DNA from: Promethearchaeota archaeon
GTDB taxonomy: Archaea; Asgardarchaeota; Lokiarchaeia; Sigyniarchaeales; SOKP01
Assembly: GCA_048940645.1 (NCBI GenBank)
Contig: JBHLOI010000002.1
Location: 57,927 to 121,926, forward strand
Direction: 5' to 3'
Length of the DNA: 64,000 nucleotides
How positions within the stretch are numbered: the stretch's first letter is position 1; each line of letters opens with the position of its first letter. The notes under the pieces were generated by a model. It saw nothing but the letters and a program-made list of their open reading frames with translations, was not told where the DNA came from and searched no databases. The position numbers were made by a program, and so were the translations under genes. Positions 18,207 through 23,178 of this stretch are shown here, piece after piece.

Positions 18207-19307
18207 CTATACATTCCGATAAAAAGGTATAGGTACAATAATTCCTTTTAGCAATTTTCCTCGAATTTCAATTTCTAATTCTGTTCCGATTTCACTATAC
18301 AGGGATTGCACTAGACCTAAGCCAATAGTTTTATCAAGTGTAGGTGAATACCCCCCAGAAGTAACATACCCAATTTCTTGACCATCTTTAAAAATTTTAT
18401 ATGTGTCTCTAATAATTCCTCTTTCTATTAAATTTAAACCTACGATAATTCTCTCTGTTCCTTTTGATTTTTGATTTAATAGAATTTCTTTCCCAATATA
18501 TTCTATACCTTCTTTAGGTTTTGCGAGCCAATTTAATCCGGCTTCTATTGGAGTTATTGAATCACTAATCTCATGACCATAAAGTGAATAACACGCCTCT
18601 AACCTCAATGAATCTCTTGCACCTAATCCGGCTGGACTTGCTCCAGTATTAATTAAGTCGTTCCAAATTTTTTCAGCATATTTATTCTCAAATGAAATTT
18701 CGAATCCTCTCTCTCCCGTATATCCAGTTCTAGCAATAAAAATAGGTATATTTTTCAGATTACAATGCGCAAAATAAAATCGATTTATTTTTGATAGGTC
18801 TACATCGACTAAAGGTTGGAACAGTTGATCTGCTTTTGGTCCTTGAAATGCTAAACGGCAACGCTTATCTGAGAGATTGGTTATTTTAACATCTTTATTT
18901 CCAATATGATCATTTAACCATTCCAAATCCTTTTCTCTATTACTGGCATTTACTATCATTCTAAATCTTTCGGGGGTCTCCTCATAGTATACTAAATCAT
19001 CAACTACCGTCCCATTCTCATAGCACATTATTGAATATTGTCCTTTAGATGGTTCTAATAGGCTTAAATCATTGATCATTATATATTGAAGAAAAGAAAT
19101 TACGTCCCTTCCCTCAAATAAAAATTCGCCCATATGTGTAATATCAAACACACCGGCATTTGAACGAATAGCCTTATGCTCTTTTATAATGCTCTCATAT
19201 TGTACAGGCATATGAAAACCAGCAAATTCTACCATTTTTGCACCTAATTTAACGTGAATATCATAAAGTGGTGTTTTCTTAACATCTTGAACTTCTTGTT
19301 TCGGCAT
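18207..19307 (-). CDS. gcvT: glycine cleavage system aminomethyltransferase T
   Basis: TPLY, FDITHMG, RTGYTGERGFE, GLGARDSLRLEA. Confidence 0.96.
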   Translation of the reverse strand: MPKQEVQDVKKTPLYDIHVKLGAKMVEFAGFHMPVQYESIIKEHKAIRSNAGVFDITHMGEFLFEGRDVISFLQYIMINDLSLLEPSKGQYSIMCYENGTVVDDLVYYEETPERFRMIVNASNREKDLEWLNDHIGNKDVKITNLSDKRCRLAFQGPKADQLFQPLVDVDLSKINRFYFAHCNLKNIPIFIARTGYTGERGFEISFENKYAEKIWNDLINTGASPAGLGARDSLRLEACYSLYGHEISDSITPIEAGLNWLAKPKEGIEYIGKEILLNQKSKGTERIIVGLNLIERGIIRDTYKIFKDGQEIGYVTSGGYSPTLDKTIGLGLVQSLYSEIGTELEIEIRGKLLKGIIVPIPFYRNV

Positions 19308-19996: not shown

Positions 19997-20197
19997 TCAT
20001 ATAAACCTTTTACTTCTATTTACAAATTAAATTTATTTTCAGAATAATTTTAATTTCTATTTATGGTAATTAAAAATTATATTTAATTGAATCGTCAAGA
20101 CTTAATTTTCTCATCAAAATTAAGAATTAGAAAAAATTATATAAAGACAATCTTATAAGAAATATATTAGACAATCAATTTTTAATAATAGATTAAA

Positions 20198-21181
20198 ATG
20201 AAGATATTATTATTTGGTCCACAAAATGCAGGAAAGACTAGCTTAATGAGGACAACCTGCTTAGGATATAACTTCATGAAGGTTTTAAATCTAAAACCAA
20301 CAAAAGGTATTTCAAGAGAGAATTTTATCTTCCGCGGTATCATGGAACTCAACTGATTTTGCCATTTCGGGAATTTCTGAGAAGTTTGGGACGCGGGAGG
20401 CCAACAACGGTATATGGAGCGATATTTCTCAGATACACACCGAGAACTTATATTTTCAGAAGTTAAAACTGCGATTTTTATGGCAGAATCTACTGTTATT
20501 GAGGATAGAGTAAAAGAAGTCTTTGATAAATTTTTAACCTACCTCTTTGAATTTAGCCCTCAAACAGAAACAGTTTATGTTTTATTGAATAAAATTGATT
20601 TACAAGATTCAAAGGAAGATGAACTTTATAATTTATTAATTAAGGGCATTGATAGTGATTTGAAGGAAAAACTTATTTTTACTCCTGTGAGCGTAAAGGA
20701 GGGGAGTGCCCAACATCGTCTTATTGAAGTTTTAGATTTCGAAATTCAAAAGAATACTCTTGCATTGCAACGGCTAGGTAAAATAAGACATTTATTAGAT
20801 CAACTTAAAGTTAATACTTTATCTGAATATCTTTTATTTAATCAACCAGATGGCTTGTTAATAGCTTCAACTTTGGGCAAATTTGAACATAAACCTTTAC
20901 AGTTTATGAAATTTGAAATTGGAACGCTTGATTCTAATGTGTACCAGATCTTTAGTAAGATTATGGAACTAATGAATACTTCAATTTCACCTTTAGAATT
21001 AACTACTGTTATATATGAAAGTGAAAGCAATTATATTCTTGTAAAGGAAGTAAGCAATGGCTCGGTCTTAATGGCTGTTACCCATAATAAAAATAATGAA
21101 GTTTTTTCAAATGTTATGGAAACCCTCACTGGGGAGAATTTTATAAATTTAAAAAATTATTTAACTACTTCTGATTTTTAA
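20198..21181 (+). CDS. Rag/Gtr-like small GTPase with C-terminal roadblock-like domain; split gene join(20198..20353,20384..21181), 317 aa
   Basis: Exon 1: MKILLFGPQNAGKTSLM (G1)...LKPTKG (G2)...FRGIMELN. Exon 2: VWDAGGQQRYMERYF (G3)...LLNKID (G4)...SVK (G5-like), then YLLFNQPDGLLIAST roadblock-like region. The ORF track shows only 20414..21181. Confidence 0.88.
20354..20383 (+). other. candidate 30-nt bulge-helix-bulge (BHB) intron in protein-coding gene
   Basis: TGATTTTGCCATTTCGGGAATTTCTGAGAA; two in-frame TGA. CTCA(20348-51) pairs with TGAG(20378-81); 3-nt bulges ACT(20352-54) and AAG(20382-84); flanking pairs GAA/TTT and GA/TC. Cutting after the 2nd nt of each bulge removes exactly this segment. 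Confidence 0.82.
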
Positions 21182-21247: not shown

Positions 21248-22105
21248 TTATTGTTCTTTTTCCATAAGTGTTTTTTTGGTTAATATATGTTGTTTTGCAT
21301 GATGAGGCCTTCTTAAAACAGTGTCATTTGATTTTTCTATCTCTCTTGCTTGATCACACATAAAAGCCGCAGTTCTCATCATTTCATGGGCGGCTGCTAA
21401 TAAAGGCATATAATCTTCTCTTTCTTTCAACACAAAGCAAGCTTTCGCTGTAACTTTTGAAACTGAAGCTGCTAACTCAAAAGCAGCAATAGCTTTTGCT
21501 TCTGCATATGGATTAGAAAAACCAGCAGCTTTAACAGCTTTAATAGCATCAACGATTATTCTTGGCATGCTAGGAGCTGTTCCTTCAAGCATGCTCATAA
21601 TTACCTTATTCAATTCTCCTGCAATAACTCGAAGTGCTCCAGTTATCGTAAGAACTTTTAACAAGTCCGAATTAAAACAACTCATTTCAGTTGGATCTAA
21701 AAAGGGTCTTCTTGCACCAATCATGCTATCACAGTTAACTAAAATGTATCCCATCCCTTTTTCTTCAATCTCTTCCACCGCCTTTTTCGCTGGAGCATCA
21801 GAAATTACAATAGTAGGAATTCCAGCCTCTTTAGCCATATCTCTAGCAGCTAATGGTCCTTTTAGAGCAGCATTCGGACTAGACATTAAAATAAGTTCTG
21901 GCTCCCACTTTAATAGATCTTTCATTGTTTCAGTACACATTTCTGGTGGATGCATTTTAGCACCTGATGTTACTTCATAGACATTAATTCTTGTAGCTTC
22001 AGCTCTTTCATCCATAAGGAATGCGAGCAATAAAGAAGAACCAATGGTTCCATTTTTAAGGATGCCGATTTTTAGTATTTTACCTTCTTCACTCATTTTT
22101 GACAC
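21248..22105 (-). CDS. mtd: F420-dependent methylene-H4MPT dehydrogenase
   Basis: LMDERA, TSGAKM, SPNAALKGP, DSMIGARRPFLDPTEM, FNSDLLKVL, NPYAEAKA, VLRRPH. Confidence 0.92.
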   Translation of the reverse strand: MSKMSEEGKILKIGILKNGTIGSSLLLAFLMDERAEATRINVYEVTSGAKMHPPEMCTETMKDLLKWEPELILMSSPNAALKGPLAARDMAKEAGIPTIVISDAPAKKAVEEIEEKGMGYILVNCDSMIGARRPFLDPTEMSCFNSDLLKVLTITGALRVIAGELNKVIMSMLEGTAPSMPRIIVDAIKAVKAAGFSNPYAEAKAIAAFELAASVSKVTAKACFVLKEREDYMPLLAAAHEMMRTAAFMCDQAREIEKSNDTVLRRPHHAKQHILTKKTLMEKEQ

Positions 22106-22260: not shown

Positions 22261-23178
22261 ATGAAAATGGAATTAAATGGAGTTGAAATAGAAGATACTT
22301 ACTGTGAAGCTTTTACTGCTGTTTTTACCAGAATTTTAGTCACAGCGAAAAATGAAAAATGGGTAAAAATAGCTAGTCAAGTAGCAACGGGTTATGGAAC
22401 ATCTACGATTCATTGTGATTCTGAAGCAGGCATCGATGTTTTTGTTCCATCAGAAAAGACACCAGATAAACGTCCAGGAGTCATTTTAATGTTTTTTAAA
22501 ACAAAAAAAGATCAAATGGACAATGTACTATTGAATCGTATTGGACAATGCATTTTAACTTGCCCTACAACAGCATGTTTTGATGCTATAAGTGGTTCAG
22601 TCGATCCAATTAAAGAATTCGAAATTAAAACAGGTTATAAACTGAAATTTTTTGGGGATAAATTTGAAGAAAAAATAGAAGGAGTATTTCCTTTCGAGGC
22701 ATGGAAAATTCCTGTAATGGATGGAGAGTTTATTGTTCAAAGCAATTTTAAGGTTGGGAAGGGAATCGCAGGTGGTAACTTCTTAATACTTTCAGAAAGC
22801 CAAGAATCAGGACTACAAGCTGCTGAAGCAGCAATTGAGGCGATAAAAGATGTTGAGAATGTTATTACTCCATTTCCAGGAGGAATAGCAAGGTCAGGAT
22901 CAAAAGTAGGTTCAAAATATTCCTTTTTAAACGCAAGTACTAACGACCCACTTTGTCCAACATTAAGAAAGGTCAGCGAAAATTCTCAATTAGGAGAAAA
23001 GGATAATTGTGTTTATGAGGTAATTTTGGATGGAGCAATTGAGGAGTCTATAAAGAAAGCTATGAAATTAGGTATTCAAGCATCAGTAAAAGTGCCTGGG
23101 GTTAATAAGATTTCCGCAGGAAATTATGGTGGTAAATTAGGTAAATTTCAGTACCGTTTACACGAAGTATTAATGTAA
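22261..23178 (+). CDS. ftr: formylmethanofuran--H4MPT N-formyltransferase
   Basis: IEDTYCEAF, TPDKRPG, RIGQCILTCPTT, FPGGIARSGSKVGSKY, ISAGNYGGKLG. Confidence 0.95.
   Translation: MKMELNGVEIEDTYCEAFTAVFTRILVTAKNEKWVKIASQVATGYGTSTIHCDSEAGIDVFVPSEKTPDKRPGVILMFFKTKKDQMDNVLLNRIGQCILTCPTTACFDAISGSVDPIKEFEIKTGYKLKFFGDKFEEKIEGVFPFEAWKIPVMDGEFIVQSNFKVGKGIAGGNFLILSESQESGLQAAEAAIEAIKDVENVITPFPGGIARSGSKVGSKYSFLNASTNDPLCPTLRKVSENSQLGEKDNCVYEVILDGAIEESIKKAMKLGIQASVKVPGVNKISAGNYGGKLGKFQYRLHEVLM

What the first reader, a model, noticed from the sequence alone, without database searches (positions are those of the whole stretch)
20345..20387. Candidate BHB (tRNA-endonuclease-type) intron inside the mRNA of an Asgard Rag-like GTPase
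Seen: from ATG 20198 the frame reads MKILLFGPQNAGKTSLM...LKPTKGISRENFIFRGIMELN*FCHFGNF*EVWDAGGQQRYMERYF. Ten extra codons with two TGA stops sit between ELN and VWDAGGQ. In Rag/Gtr1 GTPases that strand runs directly into G3 (LNLWDCGGQ). The RNA folds into a bulge-helix-bulge: outer pairs G20345-U20387, A20346-U20386, A20347-U20385; central 4-bp helix CUCA(20348-51):UGAG(20378-81); 3-nt bulges ACU(20352-54) and AAG(20382-84); inner pairs G20355-C20377, A20356-U20376. Established: the archaeal splicing endonuclease EndA cuts after the second nucleotide of each bulge, and RtcB ligates the exons. Those rules give cuts at 20353/54 and 20383/84, the same 30 nt that protein homology independently says must go, yielding AAC|GTT and an intact 317-aa protein. 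Inference: this is a spliced protein-coding gene. The established archaeal precedent is the crenarchaeal cbf5 intron; I do not know of one described in an Asgard eukaryotic-signature gene. With a stop at intron nucleotides 1-3, expression would depend on splicing. That could be an on/off switch tied to tRNA-splicing activity, reminiscent of non-spliceosomal HAC1/XBP1 splicing. Gene callers would systematically mis-annotate such genes.
Basis: partly seen in the sequence, partly recalled or inferred. Interest (0 to 1): 0.95.

Follow-up and report, generated by a model that had tools for sequence, protein, structure and literature searches.

The report
tRNA-type mini-intron in Asgard GTPase gene
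The single Rag/Gtr1-like GTPase gene of this Loki-type Asgard archaeon is broken by a 30-base insert shaped exactly like the introns that the tRNA-splicing enzyme cuts out, so its mRNA very probably has to be spliced, something the papers I could search confirm inside only one other archaeal coding sequence (cbf5).

Summary
Window 20198-21181 (+) encodes a 317-aa Rag/Gtr1-like GTPase interrupted by 30 nt (20354-20383) that carry two TGA stops.

- **Boundaries.** Homology to intronless relatives fixes the insert ends without ambiguity. They coincide with the two cut sites of a canonical bulge-helix-bulge (BHB) motif; the chance of such a motif in one fixed register is about 3 in 10,000.
- **Not an artefact.** Independent assemblies from two studies span the insert.
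- **Distribution.** Only 3 of 138 related genomes with the gene carry it, all in one genus. One further metagenomic protein was read through it.
- **Evidence for RNA, not protein.** The two distinct intron versions keep the BHB core. They show one compensatory pair change, and 4 of their 5 differences would change the peptide. All 14 changes in the adjacent exon 1 are synonymous.
- **Machinery.** The genome encodes a two-subunit EndA and RtcB.
- **Movement.** Intron and exon 1 travel together as a roughly 220-270-nt DNA tract that disagrees with the gene tree, so the intron moves between species by recombination.
- **Limits.** No RNA data exist, so splicing is inferred. The proposed on/off switch has no support.
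- **Earlier notes.** This scan had already flagged similar mini-introns elsewhere in this genome and in other Asgard genomes. I confirmed stop-bearing 30-nt inserts in two of those genes and found a new one.

The parts
20198..20353 (+). Exon 1 (52 codons, MKILLFGPQNAGKT...GIMELN): P-loop through the strand before G3
   Evidence: All 14 nucleotide differences to the other intron-bearing allele (L093) are synonymous.
20354..20383 (+). 30-nt BHB mini-intron, phase 0, with TGA at intron nucleotides 1-3 and 25-27
   Evidence: Absent from 78 of 81 orthologous loci and from 135 of 138 genomes that have the gene. Spanned without gaps by contigs of runs X2, X3 and X5. Contigs of intronless relatives break exactly at 20353.
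20384..21181 (+). Exon 2 (265 codons plus TAA): G3 motif WDAGGQ, the rest of the GTPase domain and the C-terminal Gtr1-like domain
20348..20351 (+). Central 4-bp helix H, 5' strand (CUCA, exonic); pairs with 20378-20381
   Evidence: Present in the minimum-free-energy folds of both alleles.
20378..20381 (+). Central helix H, 3' strand (UGAG, intronic)
20352..20354 (+). 5' bulge ACU; predicted cut between 20353 and 20354
   Evidence: The cut rule is given in PMC2738675.
20382..20384 (+). 3' bulge AAG; predicted cut between 20383 and 20384
20355..20377 (+). Inner helix h' (G-C, A-U) plus hairpin (U20359-A20373, U20360-A20372, C20362-G20370, C20363-G20369; loop AUUUC)
   Evidence: In L093, U20360-A20372 becomes C-G and the G20361.G20371 mismatch becomes G-U.
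20345..20347 (+). Outer helix h, 5' strand (GAA); pairs with UUU 20385-20387. It is weak (A-U, A-U, G.U).
   Evidence: In L093 the register shifts: GGA pairs with UCU and one A is left unpaired.
20329..20336 (+). Exon-exon clamp, 5' strand (CUUCCGCG); pairs with CGCGGGAG at 20392-20399
   Evidence: Minimum-free-energy folds. A longer clamp forms in L093. The intronless sister L086 has no such structure (z +0.62).
20392..20399 (+). Exon-exon clamp, 3' strand (CGCGGGAG)
20168..20383 (+). Recombination tract (5' leader, exon 1 and intron) that differs from the nearest intronless sister species but resembles the other intron-bearing lineage

Best explanation
The 30 nt at 20354-20383 are an archaeal bulge-helix-bulge intron inside the coding sequence of the genome's only Rag/Gtr1-like GTPase.

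Proposed mechanism (inferred, not observed):
1. In the pre-mRNA, the exonic CUCA pairs with the intronic UGAG. This forms the 4-bp helix flanked by two 3-nt bulges.
2. The heteromeric (alpha-beta)2 splicing endonuclease EndA cuts after the second nucleotide of each bulge.
3. RtcB joins ...AAC to GUU..., restoring an uninterrupted 317-codon frame. It probably also circularises the 30-mer.

Unspliced mRNA would stop at the first intron codon and give only a 52-aa P-loop fragment.

The intron is not a fixed feature of the gene. It is a sporadic mini-intron that enters and leaves alleles on short DNA tracts exchanged by homologous recombination between species of one genus. It is most likely tolerated rather than regulatory.

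Shown here: the sequence, the structure, the distribution, the selection pattern and the presence of the enzymes. Inferred: the cleavage, the ligation and the recombination history.
For: 1. **Boundaries match the cut sites.** Homologues define the insert as 20354-20383 with no sliding ambiguity. DNA of intronless relatives in the same sediments breaks at 20353 and continues GTTTGGGAT. These are exactly the BHB cut sites under the rule given in PMC2738675. The chance of such a motif in one fixed register is 2.76e-4.
2. **Structure is conserved.**
   - The second allele (G258, locus L093) has 5 of 30 differences, none in the bulges or the central helix.
   - U-A becomes C-G, and a G.G mismatch becomes G-U.
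   - The minimum-free-energy folds of 81 nt contain the BHB core in both alleles: z -1.84 for the window, and z -3.68 with 0 of 200 shuffles as stable for L093.
3. **The insert is not constrained as protein.** 4 of its 5 changes would be non-synonymous. Exon 1 has 14 synonymous and 0 non-synonymous changes between the same two alleles (Fisher p 0.0013).
4. **The gene is kept.**
   - dN/dS is 0.13 and 0.05 between intron-bearing genomes.
   - There are no other frame breaks.
   - It is the only orthologue in the genome.
   - The gene is present in 124 of 134 genomes of the family.
5. **The machinery is present.** There are two EndA paralogues. One keeps a His in the catalytic segment; in the other that position is not His. 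This fits the (alpha-beta)2 type reported for Asgard archaea (PMC5829648). RtcB is intact.
6. **It is real DNA.** Contigs of X2 and X3 (0 differences) and of X5 (another study, 30 differences, 0 gaps) span the insert.
7. **It is not alone in this genome.**
   - Single-copy rnhB and pfk carry in-frame 30-nt stop-bearing inserts inside GIDEAGR|GP and IGG|DDT.
   - A VWA/CoxE-like gene carries a canonical 30-nt BHB insert. Its predicted splice restores the conserved GDAA-M-ASWEL.
Against: - No RNA evidence exists for this locus; no RNA run was listed.
- Only two distinct intron sequences could be read as DNA, so covariation rests on one fully compensatory pair.
- The outer helix h is weak: three pairs including G.U in the window, and a shifted register with one unpaired A in L093.
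- A 63-nt fold does not favour the BHB.
- The dN/dS argument is weakened because the intron tract may have arrived recently relative to the divergence of exon 2. Intron and exon 1 differ by 2 nt between G000 and G238, against 51 differences in exon 2.
- My genome-wide BHB and ORF-join scan showed no enrichment over random positions (3267 against 2639). The motif alone therefore has no predictive power without homology.
Confidence: 0.85

Rival explanations
1. Splice-gated switch. The intron is kept because GTPase production is tuned by the activity of the tRNA-splicing machinery, as in HAC1/XBP1.
For: A stop at intron nucleotides 1-3 makes full-length protein strictly dependent on splicing. An exon-exon clamp around the BHB is specific to intron-bearing alleles.
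Against: Only 3 of 138 genomes with the gene have the intron. The nearest sister species lacks it. It sits on a recombination tract. Unrelated housekeeping genes in the same genome carry similar inserts. All of this points to a general tolerated element, not a gene-specific device.
Confidence: 0.1
2. Inactivating insertion. The gene is a pseudogene in these three genomes.
For: Two in-frame stops. No direct evidence of expression.
Against: The exons are intact in every carrier. There are 14 synonymous and 0 non-synonymous changes in exon 1 between the two intron-bearing haplotypes. dN/dS is 0.05-0.13. The insert ends coincide exactly with the BHB cut sites (p about 3e-4). It is the only copy of a gene kept in 124 of 134 family genomes.
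Confidence: 0.04
3. The insert is translated. TGA is recoded (Trp, Sec or read-through), giving a 327-aa protein, as a public gene call did for P0018.
For: The 30 nt keep the frame. P0018 is on record as a 327-aa protein with W at both TGA positions.
Against: TGA ends 192 of 1463 long ORFs in this genome, and RtcB, EndA and KatG have no internal TGA. 4 of 5 insert changes alter the peptide, next to an invariant flank. The insert splits the ELN-VWDAGGQ stretch that is gap-free against Gtr1 and RagA structures.
Confidence: 0.03
4. The insert is removed or skipped by another route: translational bypass (hopping), or an unknown RNA processing activity that is not EndA.
For: Nothing specific. It cannot be excluded without RNA or enzyme data.
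Against: Take-off and landing codons do not match (AAC before the gap, GAA at its end). The canonical BHB geometry and its conservation would be left unexplained.
Confidence: 0.03
5. Assembly or sequencing artefact.
For: None.
Against: Independent Logan contigs from three samples in two studies span the insert. Two other MAGs from other projects carry it.
Confidence: 0.005

Closest known systems
BHB intron in the cbf5 (pseudouridine synthase) pre-mRNA of Crenarchaeota (Desulfurococcales, Sulfolobales; Watanabe 2002, Yoshinari 2006, Yokobori 2009 = PMC2738675)
   Same: - A short intron (16-44 nt in cbf5) inside a coding sequence, too small to encode a protein.
- A BHB-type motif cut between the second and third bulge residues.
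- Linked to a hetero-oligomeric EndA.
- Gained and lost among relatives.
   Different: - Different phylum (Asgard, Loki-type) and different gene (Rag/Gtr1-like GTPase).
- The motif here is canonical, whereas most cbf5 motifs are described as unconventional.
- Splicing here is not confirmed by cDNA.
- Here the intron is seen travelling with a flanking exon tract between species.
BHB intron in the 5' UTR of HVO_1309, Haloferax volcanii (PMC7714728)
   Same: An mRNA substrate of the tRNA splicing endonuclease, with the intron released as a circle.
   Different: It lies in the untranslated leader, is 46 nt long, and is shown by circRNA-seq and in vitro cleavage. The present intron interrupts codons and is only inferred.
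BHB introns of tRNA genes in Asgard archaea (PMC5829648; bioRxiv 10.64898/2026.10.13.758758)
   Same: The same motif and the same presumed enzymes, (alpha-beta)2 EndA and RtcB. Many independent gains are reported for tRNA introns.
   Different: The substrate is an mRNA, so the exon half of the motif is made of codons (GAA CUC AAC) rather than a tRNA arm.
IRE1/RtcB splicing of HAC1/XBP1 mRNA in eukaryotes
   Same: Non-spliceosomal removal of a short intron from an mRNA, with ligation by RtcB in metazoa. Translation of the full product depends on splicing.
   Different: The endonuclease (IRE1) and its stem-loop substrate are different, and that system is a demonstrated stress switch. No regulatory role is indicated here.

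Membership tests
Archaeal BHB (EndA-type) intron | [quoted passage not shown] | tested here: met
   CUCA:UGAG is all Watson-Crick, with bulges ACU and AAG. The helix and the 5' bulge appear in the minimum-free-energy fold of 81 nt. Both bulges appear in the fold of L093.
Archaeal BHB (EndA-type) intron | Flanking helices h (exon-exon) and h' (within the intron) | tested here: met
   h' is G-C and A-U plus a 4-5-bp hairpin. h is three weak pairs (A-U, A-U, G.U) backed by an 8-bp exon clamp, 20329-36 with 20392-99.
Archaeal BHB (EndA-type) intron | Cuts after the second nucleotide of each bulge give the functional junction | tested here: met
   The predicted junction AAC|GTT equals the ELN-VWD of 78 intronless loci and of Gtr1. 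The rule is from PMC2738675.
Archaeal BHB (EndA-type) intron | Structure kept through compensatory change in relatives | tested here: met
   U-A becomes C-G, G.G becomes G-U, and the core is invariant. Only two distinct DNA sequences were available, so the test is thin.
Archaeal BHB (EndA-type) intron | Host encodes the splicing endonuclease and the RtcB ligase | tested here: met
   EndA alpha-like at G000:C2, beta-like at C25, and RtcB at C7.
Archaeal BHB (EndA-type) intron | Spliced RNA, excised or circular intron, or in vitro cleavage observed | not testable with these tools
   No RNA run was listed for the locus.
Rag/Gtr1 family GTPase | Gtr1_RagA GTPase domain over the curated cut-off | tested here: met
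   PF04670 scores 60.5 bits against a cut-off of 22. It is the best family, ahead of Arf.
Rag/Gtr1 family GTPase | C-terminal (roadblock-type) domain as in Gtr1 | tested here: inconclusive
   The family profile aligns to yeast Gtr1 chains over residues 2-288 of 317. The AlphaFold2 model has mean pLDDT 66 and is poor in parts, and no fold search was run.
Rag/Gtr1 family GTPase | Heterodimer with a RagC/Gtr2-type partner | not tested
   Paralogues in the genome are about 30% identical over the G domain only. No partner was sought.
Mobile archaeal intron with homing endonuclease | Intron-encoded, or adjacent, homing endonuclease gene | tested here: not met
   The intron is 30 nt with no ORF. Its neighbours are GcvT, a phosphoribosyltransferase, Mtd and Ftr. 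The intron has no other copy in the genome.
TGA recoding (Sec/Trp) | TGA read as sense in this organism | tested here: not met
   TGA terminates 192 of 1463 long ORFs, and conserved genes lack internal TGA. A SECIS element was not searched for.

The most novel reading that the evidence does not exclude
In Loki-type Asgard archaea, protein-coding genes carry a whole population of roughly 30-nt tRNA-type mini-introns. Splicing of mRNAs by EndA and RtcB would then be routine in these relatives of eukaryotes. The introns would spread and disappear between species on short homologous-recombination tracts, with one tract end at the intron.
Probability: 0.5. Interest if true: 0.88.

Novelty: new member of a known kind. 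Interest (0 to 1): 0.78.

Why it matters
- **A rare class.** Papers up to 2025-2026 that I could search still name cbf5 as the only archaeal coding sequence with a BHB intron, plus one Haloferax 5' UTR. A canonical example in an Asgard eukaryotic-signature GTPase suggests that protein-dependent mRNA splicing is more widespread in the archaeal relatives of eukaryotes. At least three other stop-bearing 30-nt inserts lie in genes of the same genome.
- **A practical consequence.** Gene callers split such genes into fragments of 52 and 255 aa, or read them through with the wrong genetic code, as happened for P0018.
- **Intron movement without a homing endonuclease.** The exon 1 and intron tract shared by non-sister species gives a concrete case. 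It can be tested with more genomes.

Tried and rejected
**RNA and DNA data sources**
- RNA evidence: no RNA holder was listed for the locus.
- A JGI metagenome pattern scan for ELN|TGA...TGAGAR|VWD found nothing. The same pattern in GTDB genomes found only the two MAGs already known.

**Folding and genome-wide scans**
- The 63-nt fold gave no BHB and z 0.24.
- The genome-wide BHB scan gave 388,934 motif hits. With an ORF-join filter it gave 3267 hits against 2639 at random positions, with no enrichment by helix quality. It is not usable as a census.
- From that candidate list, two were rejected as false positives. C126 (KatG) is an intact 759-aa frame. C45 is the HdrA/MvhD gene junction, with a start codon inside the 'intron'.

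**Other negative or unhelpful checks**
- The strict motif did not match the rnhB and pfk inserts. Their shapes look relaxed, and I did not work them out.
- The Pfam match of the C72 VWA protein stops before the junction. Homologue alignment was needed instead.
- The AlphaFold2 model of the GTPase is below pLDDT 50 at residues 12-58, so it could not place the junction in a strand.
- The intron has no second copy in the genome, and no homing endonuclease gene lies next to the gene.

**An idea I dropped**
- The recombination tract might be an RNA-derived '5' exon plus intron' copy. For L093, however, the tract reaches upstream into the promoter region.

Full report
**1. The observation**

- An ORF starts at ATG 20198 and reads MKILLFGPQNAGKTSLM...FRGIMELN.
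- TGA follows at 20354-56, then seven codons, a second TGA at 20378-80, and GAA.
- The frame then continues VWDAGGQQRYMERYF... to TAA at 21179-81.

Read through, the product's best Pfam match is Gtr1_RagA (60.5 bits). A profile of the family aligns to yeast Gtr1 structures over residues 2-288. In that alignment NFIFRGIMELNVWDAGGQ lies gap-free against HLRFLGNMTLNLWDCGGQ.

About 640 homologues were found, almost all of 317-318 aa, from Promethearchaeota (Loki-type Asgard) MAGs. They lack the ten codons.

Of 80 orthologous loci from GTDB species representatives, 78 run ...AAY GTN TGG... without the insert. The ends of the insert cannot slide, because the flanking bases differ. Homology alone therefore defines it as 20354-20383.

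**2. The BHB motif**

- Central helix: C20348-G20381, U-A, C-G, A20351-U20378.
- Bulges: ACU 20352-54 and AAG 20382-84.
- Inner pairs: G20355-C20377 and A20356-U20376, followed by a small hairpin.
- Outer pairs: A20347-U20385, A20346-U20386 and G20345.U20387.

The cut rule, between the second and third bulge residues, is stated for the cbf5 introns in PMC2738675. It gives exactly 20353/54 and 20383/84.

In this 30% G+C genome the same nine-pair geometry at spacing 30 is met at 2.76e-4 of positions. A match in the one register fixed by homology is therefore unlikely by chance. The motif by itself is common: 388,934 hits over spacings 12-200.

A 63-nt fold does not give the BHB (z 0.24). An 81-nt fold does contain the central helix, the 5' bulge and the hairpin. 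It adds an 8-bp clamp between exon 1 (20329-36) and exon 2 (20392-99), with z -1.84.

**3. Not an artefact**

Logan contigs span the insert in three runs:
- X2: 20281-20418, 0 differences.
- X3: 20150-20465, 0 differences.
- X5: a mangrove study distinct from the likely source study, 20150-20877, 30 differences, 0 gaps.

Contigs of intronless relatives in X2 and X7 align up to 20353 and then continue GTTTGGGAT... or GTCTGGGAT....

**4. Distribution**

A search of 400 genomes of the phylum found the gene in 138 (124 of 134 in the family). Only three have '2 TGA' inside: the window's genome G000, G238 (MAG YT2_053) and G258 (MAG DZ1M.51). All three are in one GTDB genus.

A fourth carrier is the ENA protein P0018. 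It is 327 aa and 72% identical to the window's product, and it was called through the same site with W at both TGA positions. Its nearest relatives, P0048 and P0050, are 93-95% identical and intronless.

**5. RNA element, not peptide, and not a dead gene**

G238's intron is identical to the window's. G258's differs at 5 of 30 positions, none in the bulges or the central helix.
- U20360-A20372 becomes C-G.
- The G20361.G20371 mismatch becomes G-U.
- GUU becomes GUC at the start of exon 2. This shifts the outer helix by one register, to GGA:UCU.

The 81-nt fold of G258 shows both 3-nt bulges, with z -3.68. The intronless sister allele has no structure (z +0.62).

Read as codons, 4 of the 5 intron differences are non-synonymous. 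All 14 differences in the 52 codons of exon 1 between the same two alleles are synonymous (Fisher p 0.0013).

dN/dS is 0.127 between G000 and G238, and 0.054 between G000 and G258. TGA is an ordinary stop here, ending 192 of 1463 long ORFs. The gene is single-copy, with paralogues about 30% identical.

**6. Machinery**

The genome has two EndA-family genes. Each has the N- and C-terminal endonuclease domains, and they are 34% identical to each other.
- The C2 copy keeps a His in the segment aligned to the catalytic region. In the C25 copy that position is not His.
- From my own knowledge of the EndA catalytic triad, I read this as a catalytic alpha subunit and a structural beta subunit.
- It fits the (alpha-beta)2 EndA with L1 loop reported for Asgard archaea (PMC5829648). 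It also fits the link drawn between hetero-oligomeric EndA and pre-mRNA splicing (reference 23 of that paper).

RtcB is intact.

**7. How the intron moves**

On a codon tree of 30 orthologues the three carriers are not one clade (at least two changes, 0% of bootstrap trees with one change). G000 and G238 sit next to intronless G240. G258 sits next to intronless G263 and G262.

Sliding comparisons show why.

| Region | G000 vs sister G240 | G000 vs G258 |
|---|---|---|
| Exon 1 (156 nt) | 33 differences | 14 differences |
| First 156 nt of exon 2 | 5 differences | 35 differences |

- Upstream of about -30, and downstream of the intron, G000 and G240 are nearly identical.
- G258 shares the G000-type haplotype from about -79 to the intron. 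Its sisters do not.
- No intronless exon 1 among 105 loci is closer than 24 differences to the carriers' exon 1.
- G000 and G238 also share a low-divergence block from about -205 to +244.

My reading is that the intron with exon 1 has been exchanged as a 220-270-nt tract by homologous recombination. At least one transfer reached the G258 lineage, and G240 either lost the intron or G000/G238 gained it. I could not settle the direction.

In the sharpest case, G000 against G240, the tract ends within a few bases of the intron's 3' end. I cannot explain this.

No homing endonuclease gene is nearby. The neighbours are GcvT, a phosphoribosyltransferase, Mtd and Ftr.

**8. Context in the same genome**

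Earlier notes of this scan list mini-introns in other genes of this genome: phosphatase, dnaG, S27ae, pfk and rnhB. They also list such introns in other Asgard genomes. I treated these as leads and checked two.
- The only RNase HII gene has a 30-nt in-frame insert with TAA between GIDEAGR and GPVLGP.
- The only PFK gene has a 30-nt insert with TAG and TAA between IGG and DDT.
- Their shapes did not fit my strict motif.

My own scan added one that those notes did not list. A VWA/CoxE-like gene at G000:C72:6691-6720 (minus strand) carries a 30-nt canonical BHB insert. Its predicted phase-2 splice rebuilds the Met codon of GDAA-M-ASWEL, as in all aligned homologues.

**9. Literature**

Papers from 2018, 2020 and 2025 cite only cbf5 for BHB introns in archaeal coding sequences, and HVO_1309 for a 5' UTR. 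A 2026 review of non-canonical splicing mentions archaea only for tRNA. A 2026 preprint on Asgard tRNA introns does not treat mRNAs. The 2009 cbf5 paper notes that introns in other protein genes had been predicted but not confirmed.

**10. Verdict**

This is a real, canonical BHB mini-intron in the coding sequence of an Asgard Rag/Gtr1-like GTPase. It is very probably removed by EndA and RtcB (confidence 0.85), although splicing has not been observed.

It is a new member of the kind defined by cbf5. The new elements are its phylum, its gene and the visible co-transfer with a flanking exon. The switch idea is not supported.

Noticed in passing
G000:C72:6691-6720 (minus strand) = L120:392-421: A 30-nt canonical BHB insert with two stops lies in a VWA/CoxE-like gene. 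The BHB-predicted phase-2 splice rebuilds GDAA-M-ASWEL exactly as in five aligned homologues of 410-474 aa. It was found by my own motif and ORF-join scan and was not in the earlier notes I saw.
   Followed up: partly
G000:C86:1121-1150 (L116) and G000:C37:3644-3673 (L117): The only RNase HII and PFK genes each carry an in-frame 30-nt stop-bearing insert inside an invariant motif (GIDEAGR|GP and IGG|DDT). Their folds look like relaxed rather than canonical BHB motifs.
   Followed up: partly
window 20329-20336 with 20392-20399: An 8-bp exon-exon helix (CUUCCGCG:CGCGGGAG) clamps the BHB. The G258 allele has a longer clamp that uses different synonymous codons (GGC AUC with GAU GCC). The intronless sister allele uses AGA GGU and has no clamp. 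This may be synonymous-site co-adaptation of the exons to the intron.
   Followed up: partly
window about 20168-20383; loci L086, L089, L090, L093: The recombination tract that carries the intron ends within a few bases of the intron's 3' end in the G000/G240 comparison. G240 also has about 75 extra bases in the 5' leader, resembling those of G262 and G263. The mechanism is unexplained.
   Followed up: partly
protein P0018 (ENA): A public gene call read an orthologue through the same intron, as 327 aa with Trp at both TGA positions. A code-4-type gene model was evidently chosen for a short contig. This is an example of how such introns get mis-annotated.
   Followed up: partly
window 18207-19307 (-), 21248-22105 (-), 22261-23178 (+): The GTPase gene sits among C1 and folate/H4MPT metabolism genes: the glycine-cleavage T protein, Mtd and Ftr. 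None is related to splicing or DNA cutting.
   Followed up: yes
G000, several contigs (C36, C43, C69, C117, C126): ARAGORN called introns in 6 of the first 13 tRNA genes parsed. The output was truncated, so this is not a census. One odd call was 'tRNA-Stop(tta)' on C43.
   Followed up: no
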